NCBI RefSeq assembly: GCF_041886205.1
Contig: NZ_CP169029.1
Origin: Escherichia coli
GTDB lineage: Bacteria > Pseudomonadota > Gammaproteobacteria > Enterobacterales > Enterobacteriaceae
Length of the DNA stretch: 64,000 bases
Reading direction: 5' to 3' (one strand)
Under the pieces are notes generated by a model that worked only from the letters and a program-made list of their open reading frames with translations, had not been told where the DNA came from and did no database searches. This document shows, in pieces, positions 2,732 to 21,695 of this stretch. The position numbers and the translations under genes are program-made. How positions within the stretch are numbered: position 1 is the stretch's first letter; each line of letters starts with the position of its first letter.

Positions 2732-4081
2732 ATGTTAGTTAGTAAAAGCAACGAATTTAACACTAGCGCAGTTTTGGCTAGCAGGAATTATAATGAAAAC
2801 AATTCTTCCAACCCCATGGGGCTACTAGCTTATAGTATTTTAAATTTAATTTGTAAGGAAGCTGCCTCAGGGACGTACAACGGTGCTATTGAAATTTTAC
2901 AAAAAATGATGTCTGAATGTAAATATCAAGAAGGCAACGCCTTTGTCATTATGGGATCTGGAGAACAATTAAAACGTATTAAATATGATGTTGATGAAAA
3001 TAACTTAAAAGTATTCAACGTACACTTTAATAATAATGAAGAGTTAGTTACTGATGGTGAGCCTGACGTAGTATGTTTAAGCAAGCAGGAGTGGGAAAAT
3101 CTTCTCATTAAATTAAAACCGGAGATTAAAGAAAATGTGTTTTCTGAAAATAACAAATCATCGAGAGAAAATAATGTTGATCAGTATGTTCAATCCGCTA
3201 AAAGAAATGAACAGGCCCTTTTCGATAATATAATAAAAAGTGATTTTCATGTTGCTTCACTTCAGCCAGGTAGTACGCGTAGTGTTATTTCAGAAACGCC
3301 ACGAAATGTCTGTATGGAACCACGTAATTCCTATGAAACCAAAATAGATGAGATTTCATCTTTGTCAGAGTCAAAGGAACACTCCATAGATATTCAAGAA
3401 AAAACAGATGCGTTTGTGAATGAGTTCAAGGGGATATTATTTGATAAAAATGGAACGTCTTCAGAGTTTCTACTTAATTTTTATGAATGTTGCTATGAGT
3501 TTTTACCAAGAGCGCAGCCTCAGGATAAAATCGATAGCTATAATTCAGCACTGCAAGCTTTTTCCATCTTTTGTTCATCTACGTTGACACATAATAATAT
3601 AGGCTTTGATTTCAAATTATTTCCAGAAGTCAAGCTGTCTAGAGAACATCTTGAAACGGTATTCAAATACAAAAATGGCGATGATGTCCGGGAGATAGCC
3701 AAAATTAACATTACTCTCCAAAAAGAAGAGGGTGGTTTATATAATTTACGTGGATTAGATTTTAAGGGATGCTTCTTTTCTGGACAGAACTTCAGTAACT
3801 ATGATATTCAATATGTGAACTGGGGAACGTCATTGTTTGATCTTGATACTCCATGTATTTTTAATGCGCCTGCTTACAACAAGAGTAATGAAAAATCATT
3901 AGAACGCGTCAGCGAAAACGGTTTAAGTGGAGTCTTGTCTGATCGTAATAAAAAAATAAAACTCATCACGGGCGTGGCACCATTCGATGATATTTTATTT
4001 ATGGATGACGACTTTGATGATAGTTCCTCTGAGGATGATCCCGTTGAGAATAGTCCTGTTGTGACTAGTCCCCTTGTATAA
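2732..4081 (+). CDS. AT-rich hypothetical protein, ypjC-like, with pentapeptide-repeat-like segment near C-terminus
   Basis: 449-aa ORF, low GC, Asn/Ser-rich; segment NLRGLDFKGCFFSGQNFSNYDIQYVNW resembles pentapeptide repeats; position matches ypjC of K-12. Confidence 0.55.
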   Translation: MLVSKSNEFNTSAVLASRNYNENNSSNPMGLLAYSILNLICKEAASGTYNGAIEILQKMMSECKYQEGNAFVIMGSGEQLKRIKYDVDENNLKVFNVHFNNNEELVTDGEPDVVCLSKQEWENLLIKLKPEIKENVFSENNKSSRENNVDQYVQSAKRNEQALFDNIIKSDFHVASLQPGSTRSVISETPRNVCMEPRNSYETKIDEISSLSESKEHSIDIQEKTDAFVNEFKGILFDKNGTSSEFLLNFYECCYEFLPRAQPQDKIDSYNSALQAFSIFCSSTLTHNNIGFDFKLFPEVKLSREHLETVFKYKNGDDVREIAKINITLQKEEGGLYNLRGLDFKGCFFSGQNFSNYDIQYVNWGTSLFDLDTPCIFNAPAYNKSNEKSLERVSENGLSGVLSDRNKKIKLITGVAPFDDILFMDDDFDDSSSEDDPVENSPVVTSPLV

Positions 4082-9607: not shown

Positions 9608-9630
9608 AAAAGCCCACATCTGTGGGCTTT
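9608..9630 (+). terminator. Hairpin downstream of ypjA (AAAGCCCACA-tctg-TGTGGGCTTT)
   Basis: Perfect 10-bp inverted repeat 11 nt after the stop codon; weak U-tract. Confidence 0.4.
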
Positions 9631-9760
9631 CATGTTACCAGGAGCCGCGGCTCTTTTGCGTATCCTGTTTTGTCTCCTCACCGTCTGGTCGGTGTCCTGC
9701 TGAGGCTGCTAACTTCCTGTTTTTGTTGGTGTTGTCCTTACACCGTCCAATCATGATTGG

Positions 9761-9771
9761 GCTGGCGGAGT
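9761..9771. other. Putative distal att core (imperfect repeat of ssrA 3' end)
   Basis: GCTGGCGGAGT resembles GCTGGCGGGAGT at the tmRNA 3' end (window 21340-21351); short and imperfect. Confidence 0.3.
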
Positions 9772-9825
9772 CTGAATAACATTTGCAACATAATGTTTTT
9801 ATTGTTTATTTTCCAATTCAACTTT

Positions 9826-9853
9826 CATTGGTATACCTAAGCGTATACCAATG
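9826..9853. repeat. Inverted repeat CATTGGTATAC-ctaagc-GTATACCAATG; candidate integrase arm-type site
   Basis: Perfect 11-bp arms; near-identical motif recurs at 21199-21223 at the opposite end of the element. Confidence 0.5.
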
Positions 9854-9937
9854 GCGATTTGTTGCAATGATTCCTGTGGTTAAGCGAACTTGTTGTTGAA
9901 TAGCTCACATCAAGAAAAAAACTTTTTTTACGGAAAA

Positions 9938-10030
9938 CTGTTCACACTGTTCACTCGCCATTATTTGTCTTTAATTTCAATGTGATATACGGTGAATAGT
10001 CCGTGAACAGTGAACACTTTACTGTTCACT
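9938..10030. repeat. Cluster of TGTTCAC iterons (P4 ori-like, alpha-binding type)
   Basis: At least five copies of TGTTCAC/GTGAACA in both orientations just downstream of the alpha gene. Confidence 0.6.
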
Positions 10031-10040
10031 TTCCGGGATT

Positions 10041-10070
10041 TCAGGTAAAAAAAGACCGGCTGATGCCGGT
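10041..10070 (-). terminator. Rho-independent terminator downstream of alpha
   Basis: On minus strand GACCGGCATCAGCCGGTC hairpin followed by TTTTTTT. Confidence 0.55.
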
Positions 10071-10079
10071 CCGGGTAGG

Positions 10080-14403: not shown

Positions 14404-14670
14404 TCATGCGTCGTATTTCCGGTTGCGGTGCGCGACACGTTCTTCCATCCATGCCGTGATTTCAGACTGTAGCCAGGCGACATTTTTACCCCCGAGGGAA
14501 ACCTGCGCCGGGAAAGCGTTACGGGCGATTAAATCGTAGAGCGTGGAGCGGGACAGGCCGCACTGATGAATGACTTCCGGGAGACGTAAAAAACGTTCCT
14601 GAGTCGGGGCTGAAACCGGCATCGGGTGCGCGGCAGTGGGGGACGGTGGTGCTGATGAAACTGTGTGCAT
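14404..14670 (-). CDS. Vis/AlpA-family transcriptional regulator (start may be internal Met at 14622)
   Basis: [28 protein letters not shown] is an AlpA-type HTH; 88 aa as for P4 Vis; divergent from sid. Confidence 0.7.
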
Positions 14671-14944: not shown

Positions 14945-15050
14945 CAGTGAACAGTAGTGAACAGTTGGTGAACACTTTTCTCTCAACTGTTCACTCTTTA
15001 ATTTATTGTTTTATTTATATTTTTATACTGAGTGAACAGTAGTGAATAGT
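14945..15050. repeat. Second TGTTCAC iteron cluster in the divergent vis/sid control region (crr-like)
   Basis: Six copies of GTGAACA/TGTTCAC in an AT-rich intergenic region about 5 kb from the first cluster. Confidence 0.5.
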
Positions 15051-15218
15051 TATATGTAAAAAAACAAATAGAGTGAGGGGTTTTCCTGCGACCTTTCTCT
15101 GGCCAGCCGGGTTTTTAAGTCCTGTTTGTGCCATGTCTGCGACAACGGCAATGAATCGAGTTGTTGTCTGAGGGACGGCAGAATGGCGTCAGGTTGAAAA
15201 CACAGAGAGAACCCGACG

Positions 15219-17036: not shown

Positions 17037-17113
17037 TGCGCGCCAAGCGATATATAATTAATTAATGAAGAAGGATAGAATTAACCATATAGCCATAAAA
17101 AAGGATGCGGGTG

Positions 17114-18685
17114 ATGAAGGCGAGTGATATGCAGCACTTATGTAATATAGCCAGAGAGCTTGTTTCTGATGGCAAGTTTGAAAAGGCGTATGAGTTCACG
17201 TTGCAGATTTATAAATCCCTTGACGAAAATATCTTTGGGGATAATTACTATATACTTCTTTATAATATGGCTGCGAATTTTGTTGATATAGGAGGAATGC
17301 AACCGAATAAAGAGGCTTCTCTGCTAGGCTATAACTTAATGAATGAGCACTTTGACTCTTTTTCTAAAATTATGGATGAATCTACGCTCTATTATAACCT
17401 AGCAAACGCAAAGTCAAACTTGGTTGAAAAAGGCAGTGTTTTTAAACAAACGTTTACAACAATTGAGGATATGGTGGATGTAAAAAATTTATACTGGAAG
17501 GCATTTAAATTACTCGGTGATGATAATACTATATATAGCAAAGAACTGAAGGTCAATTTAGCAAACTCACTCAAGCAACAGTTTAGAGTTGTAGAGTCTA
17601 TTTCATATTATGATGATGTTATTTCCTCGGGGGAAGATATACCGCAAGCATGGATTAACAGGTCTGAAGCCTTAATGCTATTGCTGCAACTCTCTGGTTC
17701 TCATACTATAAAGCATATAAGAGAGATTAGACTTGGATATATGAAAGCAATTGAATCAACAGAGATGCCACCGCCATGGAAACCACACTTTCAATCACGT
17801 GCTGAAAAACTCACGGAAGATATAATCGAAATGTCGGGAAAACCATTTTTTGAAAAAGAAGATGAGCTTGATGAAAAACAGACGCTAGAAGAATATAGCA
17901 AACTTAATAATTATCAAAAATTCGTTTTAGATAACCACTTTGTTCTTTCTGAGCATGGGGTGTATTGTCCTTGCGTAGTTGGGGCTAAAGATAACCTAAC
18001 AATATTACCAACACATAATGATGTTTCTGGTGATTTTATTATTCCCATGGAAATGGTTTTGAATAGGCTAAAGTCTGAATATGCTTTGGCAAGGCGCTCG
18101 TTATTCGAGTATGAGTACATGGAGGAAGTTGATGATGTGGCCTGTTATTCAGAGTTGTATAACGATGAAGTTTTAAATGTTGGTGTTGAGAAGATAAGAA
18201 ATGCATTTCGTATATGTTTTGGTGTGTTAGATAAAATAGCTATTGCAATATGTGAGTTATACGATGTTTATCCAGCCAATAAAATAGTGTACTTTGAAAA
18301 TTTTTGGCAATTAAACCAAAATGGGCGAAGGGATAAGTTTGAAGAAATAAAAACTCCAGCTTTACTGGCTTTATATAGTCTAGCTACTGACCTAAATGAT
18401 AGAAAGAATGGTGAATTATCCTTTTATAAGGATTGGAGAAATGATTTGGAACATAATATAGTGATCGTTCATAAAGATTGCGAGCCTTTAGATATATATA
18501 ATTCCTACGGTTACATGAAGAATATTAGGTTGATATCGGAGTCTGATTTTACTAGACATTTTAAAGTGTTATTGCAAATAGTACGCTCAGCAATTTTTCT
18601 TTTTACCTTTATGGTAAGAGAAGAGGGGGGTAAAAGTAACAAGGATTCATTTTTGATATCAAACTCACTAGATTGGAAAATATGA
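17114..18685 (+). CDS. Cargo protein A (523 aa): TPR-like N-terminal half, C-terminal Rx4H HEPN-like motif; function unknown, candidate defence protein
   Basis: AT-rich ORF with AAGGA 8 nt before ATG at 17114 (ORF opens at 17105); helical repeat-like N-terminus; motif WRNDLEHN near C-terminus; lies in the cos/psu-int variable slot. Confidence 0.7.
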   Translation: MKASDMQHLCNIARELVSDGKFEKAYEFTLQIYKSLDENIFGDNYYILLYNMAANFVDIGGMQPNKEASLLGYNLMNEHFDSFSKIMDESTLYYNLANAKSNLVEKGSVFKQTFTTIEDMVDVKNLYWKAFKLLGDDNTIYSKELKVNLANSLKQQFRVVESISYYDDVISSGEDIPQAWINRSEALMLLLQLSGSHTIKHIREIRLGYMKAIESTEMPPPWKPHFQSRAEKLTEDIIEMSGKPFFEKEDELDEKQTLEEYSKLNNYQKFVLDNHFVLSEHGVYCPCVVGAKDNLTILPTHNDVSGDFIIPMEMVLNRLKSEYALARRSLFEYEYMEEVDDVACYSELYNDEVLNVGVEKIRNAFRICFGVLDKIAIAICELYDVYPANKIVYFENFWQLNQNGRRDKFEEIKTPALLALYSLATDLNDRKNGELSFYKDWRNDLEHNIVIVHKDCEPLDIYNSYGYMKNIRLISESDFTRHFKVLLQIVRSAIFLFTFMVREEGGKSNKDSFLISNSLDWKI

Positions 18686-18814
18686 AAACATTACGTTGCA
18701 AGTATATCTTGTATTCGTTCAACTTTGACCTGACACACCTCTGGCACAAAGCCCCAATCTCATAGGCGGTTCTATGCCAGGGGCTGAAAGTCTGTCTCTG
18801 GTAACATACACTTA

Positions 18815-19801
18815 TTATGTTATATTGAGGAAATCTGGGATATTAGCTGGTTCAAGGTCAAAAATATATTTAATGATTCCGGCTTTTAGGTTCTCCTCAA
18901 TTCCTTTCCTGAAATCTAGAATACTTGAGATTGTTGCATCATGTTGTAAATGATGTCGCCAGTGAACATCTTTTTCTCGACTATGAAAAGATAACAATCG
19001 GGTTAGAGCCATATGTGCGAACATTCCTGATTGTTCATCGATTGTATAATGGGCAACCACGTGGGAATCAGAATATGATTCTTTCGTAGAAAGATCCCAA
19101 GAATGAAATAATTGCTGAGCAATTGGTGATAGATCCCTTATTTGTTCATTTCTTCCGTTAGTGAAGTAAACATCATCTATGACGGTATGCCAGTTTTCTT
19201 GTGTCCCTTCATCTGTTTCAATGGTTTCAATAATATTTTCTTTCTTGAAACTTATATGAACACCTGAATTAACTTGTGGAGTGTAGGTGAAGTCACCTAA
19301 AACTTTACTCATTAAGCTATTACGCATTGCATCATTGAAATTAAGATTGAAATTTGTTTTTGCCTTTGTAAATAAATCTAGATCTACCAGGCTCCAAATT
19401 CCATGTCTTCTCCAGGCAATTAAAACGGGCAGCCCTAATAATTGGCCGTAAGCTCTTAATCTGGACACGTAATCTGGACGAAAAGACAAAACATTTCCCA
19501 TGTAAGATTTAACTTCAATCAAAACAGTAGTCTTGCCTGCGCCACGCACATTAAAATTTGCTAGTAAATCTGGAACCTGAAAAGTCTTGTTAGAAGTAGT
19601 TGGATACTGCTGTTGATCCAATTTATGGACTAGGTTGCATTGACCTAGCCAACCACAGATAATCGAAAACTCGTCTTCTAACGGGAGGCCAATATTAAGT
19701 CTATTTACACGTTCAGCGATAGCCTTAGCGTCAGCCTCCCAACCCAGTTGCTCTAGAGATTCATGTATAAGTCTCTCTAAATCTGTCGGCTTATCTTTCA
19801 A
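18815..19801 (-). CDS. Cargo protein B (328 aa): putative PD-(D/E)xK-fold nuclease; function unknown, candidate defence protein
   Basis: AT-rich ORF; VPDLL ... 16 residues ... VLIEVKS fits the PD-(D/E)xK spacing; convergent with protein A. Confidence 0.7.
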   Translation of the reverse strand: MKDKPTDLERLIHESLEQLGWEADAKAIAERVNRLNIGLPLEDEFSIICGWLGQCNLVHKLDQQQYPTTSNKTFQVPDLLANFNVRGAGKTTVLIEVKSYMGNVLSFRPDYVSRLRAYGQLLGLPVLIAWRRHGIWSLVDLDLFTKAKTNFNLNFNDAMRNSLMSKVLGDFTYTPQVNSGVHISFKKENIIETIETDEGTQENWHTVIDDVYFTNGRNEQIRDLSPIAQQLFHSWDLSTKESYSDSHVVAHYTIDEQSGMFAHMALTRLLSFHSREKDVHWRHHLQHDATISSILDFRKGIEENLKAGIIKYIFDLEPANIPDFLNIT

Positions 19802-19960: not shown

Positions 19961-21148
19961 TTAATGATTTACTTTATCTCCCCACCAATCCATCAACTCA
20001 ACTCTTTGAAGTAAATAAGTTGAACGGTTGTAAGCTTTTCGAACTTCATTTTTGTCTGAGTGTGCTAATGCTGCTTCAATAACATCAGAATTAAATCCGG
20101 CTTCATTGAGTGCAGTACTTGCGATGGACCGTAACCCGTGAGCAACTAATTTCCCACCATAACCAATACGCTTAAGTGCGGCATTAGCAGTCTGACTATT
20201 CATTGGTTGCTTAGGGTTATTTCTGCTGGGAAAAACATGTTCACGGTGAGCGCTGATTGGTTTCATCACTTCCAGAATATCTAACGCCTGAGGAGATAGT
20301 GGGACTATGTGCTCACGCTTAGCTTTCATCCGTTCGGCAGGAATTGTCCAGAGCTTTGCATCAAGATCGATCTCTGCCCACCGGGTACTGGAAGCCTCAG
20401 AAGGGCGCACAAGGGTCAGGAGTTGCCATTCGATTAGACAGCGAGTCGGAACAGACAGATTTGACATGACTAAAGAACGCATCAGCTTCGGCAATTCTTC
20501 TGGCCGCAACGTCGGCATGTTTTGCTTTTTGGGCTTCTCAAAGGCCATGCCAACACCGGATGCTGGATTGGCATCAATCAGACCAGTGTTTACGGCATAA
20601 ATCATGATTTCGTTAATGCGCTGCACCAGTCGACGTACAGTCTCAAGCGCCCCACGTGCTTTTATTGGCTCAAGGGCTTCAACCAAAGTTCGGGCTTTGA
20701 TTTGCTGAACGGGGATCTCACCGATGGCAGGGAATACATCTTTCTCCAGTGAACGCCAAATGTCTTTTGCGTAATCAGGGGTAACGCTTTTGCTTTTGAG
20801 ATGGAACCAGTTAGCGGCGACCGTTGAAAAAATACTGTCCAGAGCGATTTGCTGCTGTTCCTCTGCAACTTCGGCCTGAATTTGCGGGTCAATTCCGTTG
20901 GCTAACAAGGCAAGGTAATCCGCTCTTAACCCTCGGGCGTCAGCAAGTGAGAGGGCGGGGAAAGCACCTAGCCCCATCATTGTCCGCTGTTTTGTCGCCG
21001 GACGTTGATAACGGAAACGCCAGAGCTTTTTCCCGCTGGTTTTCACTATCAGGAAAAGGCCATCGCCATCATGCAGCGTTAGATCCTTCTCTAACGCTTT
21101 AGCGCGCAGAACTTCGGTGTTGGTCAGGGGGCGTGTTGTCCGTGCCAC
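19961..21148 (-). CDS. int: P4-family integrase (IntA-like) next to ssrA
   Basis: 395 aa; N-terminal LWRFRYQRPATKQRTMMGLGAFPALSLADAR arm-binding-like domain; catalytic C-terminal domain; immediately downstream of tmRNA 3' end. Confidence 0.9.
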   Translation of the reverse strand: MARTTRPLTNTEVLRAKALEKDLTLHDGDGLFLIVKTSGKKLWRFRYQRPATKQRTMMGLGAFPALSLADARGLRADYLALLANGIDPQIQAEVAEEQQQIALDSIFSTVAANWFHLKSKSVTPDYAKDIWRSLEKDVFPAIGEIPVQQIKARTLVEALEPIKARGALETVRRLVQRINEIMIYAVNTGLIDANPASGVGMAFEKPKKQNMPTLRPEELPKLMRSLVMSNLSVPTRCLIEWQLLTLVRPSEASSTRWAEIDLDAKLWTIPAERMKAKREHIVPLSPQALDILEVMKPISAHREHVFPSRNNPKQPMNSQTANAALKRIGYGGKLVAHGLRSIASTALNEAGFNSDVIEAALAHSDKNEVRKAYNRSTYLLQRVELMDWWGDKVNH

Positions 21149-21167: not shown

Positions 21168-21232
21168 ATTGGTATACGCTTTTAGGTATACATCCTACCG
21201 TATACCTAAACGTATACCAATAATCACCGGAT
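21168..21232. repeat. Cluster of GGTATAC motifs incl. CGTATACCTAAACGTATACCAAT; candidate integrase arm sites between int and ssrA
   Basis: Three or more GTATACC/GGTATAC copies; 23-nt block nearly identical to 9832-9852. Confidence 0.45.
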
Positions 21233-21332
21233 TTAGCCGGATGTTCTCGGACAACTACAGACACAAAAAAGCCCGCAGAGCTTGTGCTATACGGGCTTTC
21301 TGTACTTCACCGGACGTATCCGGATCATCATT

Positions 21333-21695
21333 TGGTGGAGCTGGCGGGAGTTGAACCCGCGTCCGAAATTCCTACGTCCTCGGTACTACATGCTTAGTCA
21401 GTCTTTACATTCGCTTGCCAGCTGCGGACGGACACGCCACTAACAAACTAGCCTGATTAAGTTTTAACGCTTCAACCCCAGGCAGGGCTTCCACGCGATC
21501 TCTTTTGGGTTTGACCTCTCTTGATCCCCGTCCTAAGAGCGGAGGCTAGGGAGAGAGGGCTCTAAGCAGGTTATTAAGCTGCTAAAGCGTAGTTTTCGTC
21601 GTTTGCGACTATTTTTTGCGGCTTTTTACGAGGCCAACCGCCCCTCGGCATGCACCTTGGGTTTCGCAAATCCCGTCGAATCCAGAATCAGCCCC
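21333..21695 (-). ncRNA. ssrA: tmRNA (SsrA), 363 nt
   Basis: Reverse complement begins GGGGCTGATTCTGGATTCGACGGGATTTGCGAAACC and ends GGTTCAACTCCCGCCAGCTCCACCA; ANDENYALAA tag template region present. Confidence 0.95.

What the first reader, a model, noticed from the sequence alone, without database searches (positions are those of the whole stretch)
9826..9853. Near-identical 23-bp GTATACC motif block at both ends of the satellite
CATTGGTATAC-ctaagc-GTATACCAATG (perfect 11-bp inverted repeat) lies about 70 bp inside the left boundary, and CGTATACCTAAACGTATACCAAT plus further GGTATAC copies lies at 21168-21232 between the int start and ssrA. Shared short repeats close to both junctions and next to int are what integrase arm-type binding sites look like.
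Basis: seen in the sequence. Interest (0 to 1): 0.4.

Follow-up and report, generated by a model that had tools for sequence, protein, structure and literature searches.

The report
Integrase arm-binding repeats of P4-like satellite
The GGTATAC repeats at both ends of this E. coli P4-like satellite are almost certainly the accessory ("arm-type") docking sites of its own integrase, laid out as in phage P4: an expected part of a well-understood integration machine, with a different recognition sequence.

Summary
The palindrome lies at 9826-9853. Four more GGTATAC copies lie at 21168-21221, between the int start (21148) and the 3' end of ssrA (21333). The 22-mer shared by the two ends is the only long-range repeat of that quality in the 64-kb window.

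The integrase has a P4-type arm-binding domain. The repeat layout matches the "attP arm sequence repeats" annotated in P4, with near-identical spacing: two tandem 12-bp units about 55 bp from the core on one arm, two tandem units plus inverted copies about 115 bp away on the int arm.

Across 79 related loci the layout is constant but the motif changes: GGTATAC, GGTACAC, GGCCCA in K-12 CP4-57, GTAACAC in Colwellia. It was the same type at both ends in all 14 elements, the window included, where both ends could be located.

The GGTATAC/GGTACAC split tracks seven residues, all within integrase residues 4-76. The catalytic part stays about 92% identical, and the excisionase Vis shows no such split.

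The conserved unit is a tandem direct repeat. The perfect palindrome is a local by-product.

The int-side sites probably overlap the int promoter, which would allow autorepression (inferred).

This is a new member of a known kind, of modest interest.

The parts
9758..9776 (-). Distal att junction. The minus strand reads TTCAGACTCCGCCAGCCCA: the element-side core plus a remnant of the original ssrA 3' end (equivalent to psaA in K-12). This is the left boundary of the 11.6-kb satellite.
   Evidence: The same TTCAGACTCCGCCAGC|host-flank junction occurs in 12 related elements and in K-12 CP4-57/psaA. It matches CTCCCGCCAGCTCCACCA at the ssrA 3' end.
9815..9825 (-). Conserved box AAAGTTGAATT, next to the distal repeats on their core side. 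Its function is unknown; it could be an accessory-protein site.
   Evidence: It is conserved in both GGTATAC-type and GGTACAC-type elements and in CP4-57 (AAAATTGAAC), while the following ~45 nt of AT-rich sequence varies.
9829..9840 (-). Distal arm site D2. The minus strand reads TTAGGTATACCA.
   Evidence: It is the second unit of a tandem pair with 12-bp period, found with the matching motif type in 13 related elements.
9841..9852 (-). Distal arm site D1. The minus strand reads ATTGGTATACGC.
   Evidence: Its position matches P4 repeats 4174-4163 and 4162-4151, which lie 53 bp from the P4 core.
21168..21179 (+). int-proximal arm site P'4, inverted relative to P'1 and P'2. The plus strand reads ATTGGTATACGC. 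It ends 19 nt before the int start codon.
   Evidence: It is nearly invariant across 58 non-redundant upstream regions apart from the type-specific T/C position. It corresponds to the inverted P4 repeat 3915-3926 at the P4 int start.
21180..21191 (+). int-proximal arm site P'3, inverted. The plus strand reads TTTTAGGTATAC. It is perfect here but degenerate in many relatives.
   Evidence: Searches show lower conservation than for P'1, P'2 and P'4.
21192..21197 (-). Predicted -10 hexamer of the int promoter (TAGGAT), between P'2 and P'3.
   Evidence: TAnnnT lies 17 nt after TTGGTA in 58 of 59 loci, although the inner bases vary. It falls below the threshold of the consensus scan. Inferred.
21198..21209 (-). 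int-proximal arm site P'2. The minus strand reads TTAGGTATACGG.
   Evidence: It forms a tandem with P'1 at 12-bp period, like P4 repeats 3965-3954 and 3953-3942.
21210..21221 (-). int-proximal arm site P'1. The minus strand reads ATTGGTATACGT. It contains the predicted -35 hexamer TTGGTA (21215-21220) and lies about 112-119 bp from the core.
   Evidence: The P4 equivalent lies 112 bp from its core.
21228..21251 (-). Three TCCG boxes exactly 10 bp apart, in phase with P'1. They are candidate binding sites for the AlpA/Vis-type excisionase.
   Evidence: TCC(G/A) is kept at -30, -20 and -10 from P'1 in 59 loci. The same three boxes at 10-bp spacing occur in P4 at 3996, 3986 and 3976, and similar boxes occur in CP4-57. 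That Vis binds them is inference only.
21263..21300 (-). Replacement ssrA terminator supplied by the element.
   Evidence: Terminator-like hairpin plus T-run, conserved in the relatives.
21333..21350 (-). Proximal att core, at the 3' end of ssrA. The minus strand reads CTCCCGCCAGCTCCACCA. This is the right boundary of the satellite.
   Evidence: The K-12 annotation places the CP4-57 boundary in the same CCGCCAGC.
19961..21148 (-). int: a heterobivalent tyrosine integrase of 395 aa. It is 62% identical to K-12 IntA and 36% identical to P4 Int.
   Evidence: Pfam Arm-DNA-bind_3 at 8-92, Phage_int_M at 107-198, Phage_integrase at 213-377. Identities. PDB 3JU0 and 3JTZ arm-binding domains match residues 8-94.
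14404..14670 (-). vis: an AlpA-family excisionase and regulator of 88 aa, 64% identical to P4 Vis.
   Evidence: Pfam Phage_AlpA; comparison with P4 ORF88.
21333..21695 (-). ssrA (tmRNA), the integration target.
   Evidence: ARAGORN.

Best explanation
The GGTATAC blocks are the arm-type binding sites of the satellite's own integrase.

When the element is excised as a circle, its two ends join. The order, read in the direction of int, is then:
- D1-D2 (two tandem 12-bp units);
- about 55 bp of AT-rich DNA;
- the core, which is the last ~15 nt of ssrA;
- a replacement ssrA terminator;
- three phased TCCG boxes;
- P'1-P'2 (two tandem units);
- P'3-P'4 (inverted units);
- int.

The N-terminal domain of Int (residues ~1-95) would bind these units while the C-terminal domains bind and cut the core. 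The bridging folds the DNA into the recombination complex needed to insert into and leave ssrA. The AlpA-type Vis protein and host bending proteins would set the direction of the reaction.

P'1 carries a -35-like TTGGTA, P'2 lies in the spacer, and P'3/P'4 cover the predicted transcription start. The same binding should therefore repress int transcription in the prophage.

Shown here: the sequence layout, its homology to P4, and the covariation with the Int N-terminal domain. Inferred: the binding itself, the promoter and its autorepression, and the assignment of the TCCG boxes to Vis.
For: 1. Int has the P4-type arm-binding domain, PF13356, at residues 8-92. This region matches the solved arm-binding domains of the HAI7 and HPI integrases.

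2. The P4 record annotates attP arm repeats at 4174-4151 (two tandem), the core at 4097-4078, then 3965-3942 (two tandem) and an inverted copy at 3915-3926 at the int start. The window has the same order. Gaps are about 52-58 and 111-118 bp here, against 53 and 112 bp in P4. Flanking sequence (TCCGAG...AAATCCGG...ATTGG) is recognisably homologous.

3. In 79 related loci the sites sit at fixed positions upstream of int.

4. The motif comes in types: GGTATAC (31 loci), GGTACAC (24), GGCCCA (K-12 CP4-57), GTAACAC (Colwellia) and GGGGGCA (P4). In each of the 14 elements where both ends were located, the window among them, the distal pair carries the same motif type as the int-proximal sites.

5. 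All 7 alignment columns that perfectly separate GGTATAC-type from GGTACAC-type integrases lie at residues 4-76 (T4, T11, V13, L19, L23, M57, A76). None lies in residues 103-395.

6. Between the two types, residues 1-95 are 66% identical on average and residues 105-390 are 82% identical. Window versus L028: 65% against 92%. L054 (GGTACAC) versus L044 (GGTATAC): catalytic part 93%. The switch has therefore happened on at least two catalytic-domain backgrounds.

7. Vis shows no discriminating column in 17 versus 15 sequences.

8. The AlphaFold model places T11 and V13 in the N-terminal helix, L23 on strand 1 and M57 on strand 4 of the beta-sheet.

9. TTGGTA, then 17 nt, then TAnnnT is kept in 58 of 59 loci. 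Repression of the P4 int promoter by Int and by Vis is reported in PMC7286903, citing Piazzolla 2006. Overlap of attL with the int promoter, with autorepression, was shown for KplE1 in PMC2951348.
Against: - There is no binding, footprint or genetic evidence for this integrase.
- The whole ssrA-int intergenic region is well conserved, so conservation alone does not single out the repeats.
- In the excised circle the distal arm, core, int-side arm and the N-domain coding sequence lie within about 600 bp. They could be inherited as one recombination tract, so part of the covariation may reflect linkage rather than function. Linkage would still not explain why all five units within a tract carry the same base change.
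- The consensus promoter scan found no promoter at its threshold; the proposed one matches 8 of 12 positions.
- P'3 is degenerate in many relatives.
Confidence: 0.85

Rival explanations
1. The repeats are operators for a host GntR-family regulator (UxuR/ExuR). The E. coli UxuR operator is AAATTGGTATACCAATTT, so sugar-acid metabolism could control int or excision.
For: The UxuR site quoted in PMC8092373 contains TTGGTATACCAA. The left-end block ATTGGTATACCTAA matches its central 10 bp exactly and 12 of 18 positions overall.
Against: - Only the window-type distal block comes close to the full palindrome.
- The int-side units read GGTATACG, which breaks the symmetry.
- Close relatives with the same layout use GGTACAC, GGCCCA or GTAACAC, and none of these is a UxuR site.
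- The motif type tracks the integrase N-terminal domain.
- Occasional cross-binding in E. coli is not excluded.
Confidence: 0.04
2. The left-end palindrome acts as a hairpin: an intrinsic terminator or cruciform marking the end of the element. The right-end copies are then coincidental.
For: The scan flags 9825-9854 on the plus strand as terminator-like, with a 12-pair stem. As single-stranded DNA it folds at -8.7 kcal/mol, z = -4.1.
Against: - Only 4 of the 12 pairs are G-C, and the tail CGATTTGTTG is a poor T-run.
- ypjA already has its own terminator at about 9610-9632, and alpha has one at 10053-10072.
- The stem is not conserved: 7 bp and z = -1.4 in E. coli a7, and absent in GGTACAC-type elements.
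- The hairpin idea does not explain the matching copies at the other end.
Confidence: 0.03
3. The repeats are bound by another element-encoded protein, not by the integrase N-terminal domain. Candidates are the Vis/AlpA excisionase or an immunity factor.
For: Excisionases typically bind direct repeats about one helical turn apart near att (PMC7498355 abstract). P4 Vis binds in the attP region (PMC2603039).
Against: - Vis has no residue that separates GGTATAC-type from GGTACAC-type elements, whereas the Int N-domain has seven.
- Vis identity ranges overlap between the two types.
- The repeats correspond position by position to the units annotated as attP arm repeats in P4.
- A better Vis candidate exists: the three TCCG boxes at 10-bp spacing. 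They are conserved across motif types and in P4, as is Vis itself.
Confidence: 0.06

Closest known systems
Phage P4 attP and Int (NC_001609; Pierson & Kahn 1987, as cited in PMC7286903)
   Same: - Same satellite family: alpha, DUF5375, Vis, delta/ogr and psu genes.
- int lies next to att and is transcribed away from the core.
- Two tandem 12-bp units on the far arm, two tandem units plus an inverted unit on the int arm, with almost the same distances to the core.
- Units begin (A)TTGG.
- Three phased TCCG boxes precede the int-side pair.
- Vis is 64% identical.
   Different: - Int is only 36% identical.
- The target is ssrA, not tRNA-Leu (leuX).
- The unit is ATTGGTATACG rather than ATTGGGGGCATA.
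- There are two inverted units here, against one annotated in P4.
E. coli K-12 cryptic prophage CP4-57 (IntA/AlpA) at ssrA
   Same: - Same integration site and the same junction sequence next to ypjA.
- IntA is 62% identical.
- Same layout of tandem and inverted repeats at both ends.
   Different: - The motif is GGCCCA near int and GGACCA at the far end.
- CP4-57 is a 22-kb island, not a P4-like satellite.
- I found no paper in the searchable library that describes arm sites for this integrase lineage.
KplE1 (CPS-53) IntS/TorI at argW (PMC2951348)
   Same: The int promoter is embedded in attL, so arm-type sites overlap the promoter and Int represses its own gene. That paper predicts this for most tRNA-linked integrases in this orientation.
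   Different: A different integrase lineage, arm consensus and excisionase family. Autorepression was shown experimentally there and is only inferred here.
Phage lambda Int arm-type sites (P1, P2, P'1-P'3)
   Same: General mechanism: a heterobivalent integrase bridges arm and core sites, with an excisionase and host bending proteins setting the direction (background in PMC2951348).
   Different: The arm-binding domain belongs to a different Pfam family (PF13356 here). The site sequence, number and spacing also differ.
Arm-binding domains of the HPI and HAI7 integrases (PDB 3JTZ, 3JU0)
   Same: Solved structures of the same domain family. 3JU0 aligns with residues 8-94, E = 6e-16.
   Different: They come from other islands and targets. 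Their cognate arm sequences could not be checked because the paper is not held.

Membership tests
P4-type attP with arm-type integrase sites | The integrase carries an N-terminal arm-binding domain in addition to the core-binding and catalytic domains. | tested here: met
   PF13356 at 8-92 (E = 4e-22), PF22022 at 107-198, PF00589 at 213-377. PDB 3JU0 and 3JTZ match.
P4-type attP with arm-type integrase sites | Repeated units on both sides of the core: tandem pairs at 12-bp period plus an inverted copy next to the int start. | tested here: met
   Units D1, D2, P'1, P'2, P'3 and P'4. Their layout and spacing match the annotated P4 repeats.
P4-type attP with arm-type integrase sites | Integration into the 3' end of a tRNA-like gene, with the element supplying a replacement 3' end and leaving a partial copy at the far junction. 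| tested here: met
   ssrA 3' end at 21333-21350 and a remnant at 9758-9768. The junction recurs in 12 relatives and in K-12.
P4-type attP with arm-type integrase sites | The repeat sequence co-evolves with the integrase arm-binding domain. | tested here: met
   Motif type against N-domain signature is 31/31 and 24/24. All 7 discriminating columns lie in residues 4-76, with none in the catalytic part or in Vis. Both ends are concordant in all 14 elements checked, counting the window.
P4-type attP with arm-type integrase sites | Int physically binds the repeats, and the repeats are required for recombination. | not testable with these tools
   This needs gel-shift, footprinting and attP mutagenesis.
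P4-type attP with arm-type integrase sites | An AlpA/Vis-family excisionase is encoded by the element. | tested here: met
   ORF 14404-14670 matches PF05930 and is 64% identical to P4 Vis.
Autoregulated integrase promoter embedded in attL (KplE1/P4 type) | The int promoter elements overlap the arm-type sites. | tested here: inconclusive
   TTGGTA (inside P'1), a 17-nt spacer and TAnnnT are kept in 58 of 59 loci. The match here is 8 of 12, and the consensus scan reports no promoter. No transcript data are available.
UxuR/ExuR (GntR-family) operator | An 18-bp palindrome, AAATTGGTATACCAATTT. | tested here: not met
   The best match is 12 of 18 at the left end. The int-side units break the symmetry, and the motif is replaced in close relatives.
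Intrinsic terminator | A G+C-rich stem followed by a T-run, conserved among relatives. | tested here: not met
   Only 4 of 12 pairs are G-C, the T-run is weak, and the stem is lost in relatives.

The most novel reading that the evidence does not exclude
Among integrases that all target the same ssrA core, the arm-binding domain and its five or six arm sites may be exchanged or co-evolve as a cassette. This would produce recombination modules that share a target but use different arm sequences.

The GGTATAC/GGTACAC pair differs by one base per site and by at most seven integrase residues: T4, T11, V13, L19, L23, M57 and A76. It would then be a natural specificity switch. It could give a first recognition rule for the PF13356 arm-binding domain, and it could let different islands at ssrA excise independently of each other.
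Probability: 0.35. Interest if true: 0.5.

Novelty: new member of a known kind. Interest (0 to 1): 0.3.

Why it matters
It defines the full attachment site of a common E. coli and enterobacterial P4-like satellite lineage that uses ssrA. About 8% of complete E. coli genomes carry a close int homologue.

It lets the boundaries of this 11.6-kb element be set to the base.

It also gives a clean, testable pair of arm specificities on nearly identical catalytic domains. That pair is useful for working out how P4-type arm-binding domains read DNA, and for building orthogonal integration tools.

It does not reveal a new mechanism.

Tried and rejected
- Full-text search for the repeat sequences returned no work on integrase sites. 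It returned only the UxuR operator, which I kept as a weak rival.
- Searches for arm-type sites of ssrA or P4-like integrases found general background (KplE1, PAI I536, Gifsy-1 Xis) but nothing on this lineage.
- The structural paper on the HPI and HAI7 arm-binding domains is not held, so their cognate sites could not be compared.
- The consensus promoter scan found no promoter in either arm. The int promoter I propose rests on conservation only.
- I looked by eye for an IHF consensus (WATCAANNNNTTR) in both arms and found no convincing match. IHF involvement is untested.
- I considered that different arm types keep tandem islands at ssrA from cross-reacting. The one tandem array examined (Yersinia pestis L050) has GGTATAC sites on both copies, so the idea has no support so far.
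- The perfect palindrome is not a functional hairpin, because it is not conserved.
- No complete E. coli genome in the collection carries this exact satellite; best coverage is 60%.

Full report
**What is in the sequence.**

The window is E. coli chromosome. The ssrA-smpB-ratA-recN flank is 100% identical to several complete genomes.

- ssrA (tmRNA) lies at 21333-21695 on the minus strand.
- A 395-aa tyrosine integrase gene lies just downstream of it, at 19961-21148 on the minus strand.
- From there to about 9760 runs a P4-like satellite. It encodes an alpha primase-helicase, DUF5375, an Ash-like protein, an AlpA/Vis homologue, a delta/ogr zinc finger, Psu and a HEPN cargo gene.
- ypjA lies to its left. 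The element therefore occupies the same ssrA-ypjA slot as the K-12 cryptic prophage CP4-57.

**Checking the observation.**

- CATTGGTATACctaagcGTATACCAATG is at 9826-9853.
- On the other side, 21168-21221 holds four GGTATAC copies: two on each strand.
- Seven of the nine GGTATAC hits in the 64-kb window fall in these two blocks. The shuffled expectation for the whole window is 3.5, and about 0.003 hits are expected in the 82 bp concerned.
- 9831-9852 and 21200-21221 agree at 21 of 22 positions.
- Only two direct 22-mer pairs with one mismatch or fewer exist anywhere in the window. The other is a local tandem inside ypjA.

**Boundaries.**

On the minus strand, ssrA ends ...GGTTCAACTCCCGCCAGCTCCACCA at 21333. 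The left end carries ...TTATTCAGACTCCGCCAGCCCA, at 9776 down to 9758, followed by the sequence that flanks CP4-57 in K-12. The same TTCAGACTCCGCCAGC|host-flank junction recurs in twelve related elements. The K-12 annotation places the CP4-57 boundary and the ssrA pseudo-copy psaA in the same CCGCCAGC.

The satellite is about 11.58 kb. The palindrome starts about 58 bp inside the left junction. The nearest right-end unit lies about 112-119 bp from the core.

**Anatomy.**

Reading in the direction of int, with the ends joined as in the excised circle:
- D1 ATTGGTATACGC (9852-9841) and D2 TTAGGTATACCA (9840-9829);
- a conserved AAAGTTGAATT box;
- about 45 nt of AT-rich DNA;
- the core;
- a replacement ssrA terminator;
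- three TCCG boxes exactly 10 bp apart;
- P'1 ATTGGTATACGT (21221-21210) and P'2 TTAGGTATACGG (21209-21198);
- TAGGAT;
- the inverted units P'3 (21191-21180) and P'4 (21179-21168);
- AGGAG, then the GTG start of int.

**Comparison with P4.**

The P4 GenBank record annotates "attP arm sequence repeat" features:
- 4174-4163 and 4162-4151 on one side of the core (4097-4078);
- 3965-3954 and 3953-3942 on the other side;
- an inverted copy at 3915-3926, at the int start.

That is the same order and orientation as here, with the same 12-bp period. The gaps are 53 and 112 bp in P4, against about 52-58 and 111-118 bp here. P4 units read ATTGGGGGCATA. They share the leading ATTGG and differ in the rest. 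The stretch before the int-side pair is also recognisably homologous, including three TCCG boxes at 10-bp spacing. Int is 36% identical to P4 Int and Vis is 64% identical to P4 Vis.

**The integrase.**

Pfam finds the P4-type arm-binding domain (PF13356, residues 8-92), the central domain and the catalytic domain. Residues 8-94 match the solved arm-binding domains of the HAI7 and HPI island integrases.

**Relatives.**

A scan of one genome per species returned 79 loci with integrases 54-95% identical. In 51 of the 69 that could be checked, the ssrA 5' end lies within 700 nt upstream of int. Aligned on the start codon, all show the same arrangement of two direct and two inverted units at fixed positions, but the unit sequence comes in types:
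- GGTATAC in 31 loci;
- GGTACAC in 24 loci;
- GGCATAC in Tolumonas;
- GGTACC in Zophobihabitans;
- GTAACAC in Colwellia;
- GGCCCA in K-12 CP4-57, whose IntA is 62% identical.

A tandem pair with 12-bp spacing was found at the far end of 13 related elements: 4 of GGTATAC type, 8 of GGTACAC type, and Colwellia. With the window that makes 14 elements, and in all of them the far-end motif type matches the int-side sites. No other such cluster occurred in the 20-kb loci, apart from a second tandem element in Yersinia pestis. CP4-57 shows the same layout with a slightly diverged distal motif, GGACCA.

**Covariation with the protein.**

- In an alignment of 60 full-length integrases, seven columns perfectly separate GGTATAC-type from GGTACAC-type proteins. 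All seven lie at residues 4-76: T4, T11, V13, L19, L23, M57, A76. None lies in residues 103-395.
- Between the two types the N-terminal 95 residues are on average 66% identical, and residues 105-390 are 82% identical.
- The window protein and L028 are 65% identical in the N-domain and 92% in the rest.
- L054 (GGTACAC type) has a catalytic part 93% identical to L044 (GGTATAC type).
- The switch therefore appears on at least two catalytic-domain backgrounds.
- The Vis homologues of 17 and 15 elements of the two types show no discriminating column, and their identity ranges overlap.
- An AlphaFold model of residues 1-110 (mean pLDDT 84) places T11 and V13 in a short N-terminal helix, L23 at the start of strand 1, M57 on strand 4 and A76 on the following helix. 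That these residues face the DNA is inference.

**A caveat.**

In the excised circle the distal arm, the core, the int-side arm and the N-domain coding sequence all lie within about 600 bp. They could travel as one recombination tract, so some of the covariation may be linkage. Linkage does not explain why all five well-conserved units inside a tract carry the same single-base change. That needs a common reader, and the only candidate that varies with it is the Int N-domain.

**Likely regulation (inferred).**

TTGGTA inside P'1, a 17-nt spacer containing P'2, and a TAnnnT hexamer are kept in 58 of 59 loci. The inner bases of the hexamer vary: TATACT, TAGGAT, TAAGAT, TATAAT, TAAAAT. This looks like the int promoter. 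Here it matches 8 of 12 consensus positions, below the threshold of the scan. Int bound at P'1-P'4 would occlude it.

Repression of the P4 int promoter by Int and Vis is reported in the literature (PMC7286903 citing Piazzolla 2006). Overlap of attL with the int promoter, with autorepression, was demonstrated for KplE1 and predicted to be general (PMC2951348).

The three phased TCC(G/A) boxes are conserved in 59 loci, in P4 and in CP4-57. They are the best candidates for Vis sites, because excisionases bind direct repeats one helical turn apart (PMC7498355 abstract) and P4 Vis footprints in attP (PMC2603039). This assignment is a guess.

**The palindrome itself.**

The perfect 11-bp inverted repeat exists because GTATAC is self-complementary and D2 happens to be followed by CAATG. 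In E. coli a7 the stem is 7 bp (-3.8 kcal/mol, z = -1.4, against -8.7 kcal/mol and z = -4.1 here). In GGTACAC-type elements it is absent. The conserved feature is the tandem direct pair. A terminator or cruciform role is therefore unlikely, although the scan flags the stem as terminator-like.

**Host-factor rival.**

The E. coli UxuR operator AAATTGGTATACCAATTT (PMC8092373) shares its central 10 bp with the left-end block. The resemblance disappears in the int-side units and in relatives with other motifs. It is at most incidental cross-binding.

**Verdict.**

These are arm-type integrase sites of a P4-family attachment site, in a lineage (CP4-57 IntA-like, specific for ssrA) for which I found no published description of arm sites. 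The kind is well known and annotated in P4 itself, so this is a new member of a known kind and of modest interest.

The most useful by-product is the natural GGTATAC/GGTACAC switch, coupled to a handful of N-domain residues on nearly identical catalytic domains. It is directly testable.

Noticed in passing
window 21228-21251 (minus strand); also P4 L081 3973-3996 and K-12 L082 550-583: Three TCCG boxes lie exactly 10 bp apart and in phase with the first int-side arm unit. They are conserved in 59 related loci, in P4 and, with one gap, in CP4-57. They look like excisionase (Vis/AlpA) sites.
   Followed up: partly
window 9815-9825: An AAAGTTGAATT box lies on the core side of the distal arm pair. 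It is conserved across motif types and in CP4-57, while the neighbouring AT-rich spacer varies. Its function is unknown.
   Followed up: partly
window 9923-10041 and 14946-15064: Clusters of GTGAACAG/CTGTTCAC repeats lie just inside the left end and again upstream of the sid-like operon. Their positions match the P4 crr and ori 'type 1 repeats' for the alpha protein.
   Followed up: no
window 17105-19801: Two cargo genes lie between psu and int: a 526-aa protein with an LA2681-like HEPN domain, and a 328-aa protein with no Pfam match. This is the position where P4-like satellites carry variable, probably anti-phage, genes.
   Followed up: no
window 9826-9840: ATTGGTATACCTAA matches the central 10 bp of the E. 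coli UxuR operator AAATTGGTATACCAATTT. Incidental binding by UxuR or ExuR is possible.
   Followed up: partly
L050 (Yersinia pestis), +10070 to +10345 from the int start: There is a tandem array. The distal arm and core of one element are followed directly by the terminator, arm sites and int of a second element, and both use GGTATAC. The first int is no longer next to ssrA, which suggests a rearrangement.
   Followed up: partly
L055, L068, and the second copy in L050: These variants have lost one 12-bp unit of the P'1-P'2 tandem, leaving a single direct unit. The number of int-side units is therefore not fixed.
   Followed up: no
L028, -520 to -150 from the int start: This GGTACAC-type element is preceded by the 3' end of a different integrase gene and by only a ~35-nt ssrA fragment, not by a full ssrA. 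Unrelated islands appear to be stacked in tandem at ssrA.
   Followed up: no
window 9755-9762 versus K-12 L082 22478-22490: The host side of the left junction reads CCAGCCCAATCATG here and CCAGCCCACCAATCATG in K-12. The 3-bp difference lies in the remnant of the ssrA CCA end.
   Followed up: no
window 21146-21148: int starts with GTG here and in the closest relatives, but with ATG in most other loci. The Shine-Dalgarno sequence is AGGAG, 8 nt upstream.
   Followed up: no
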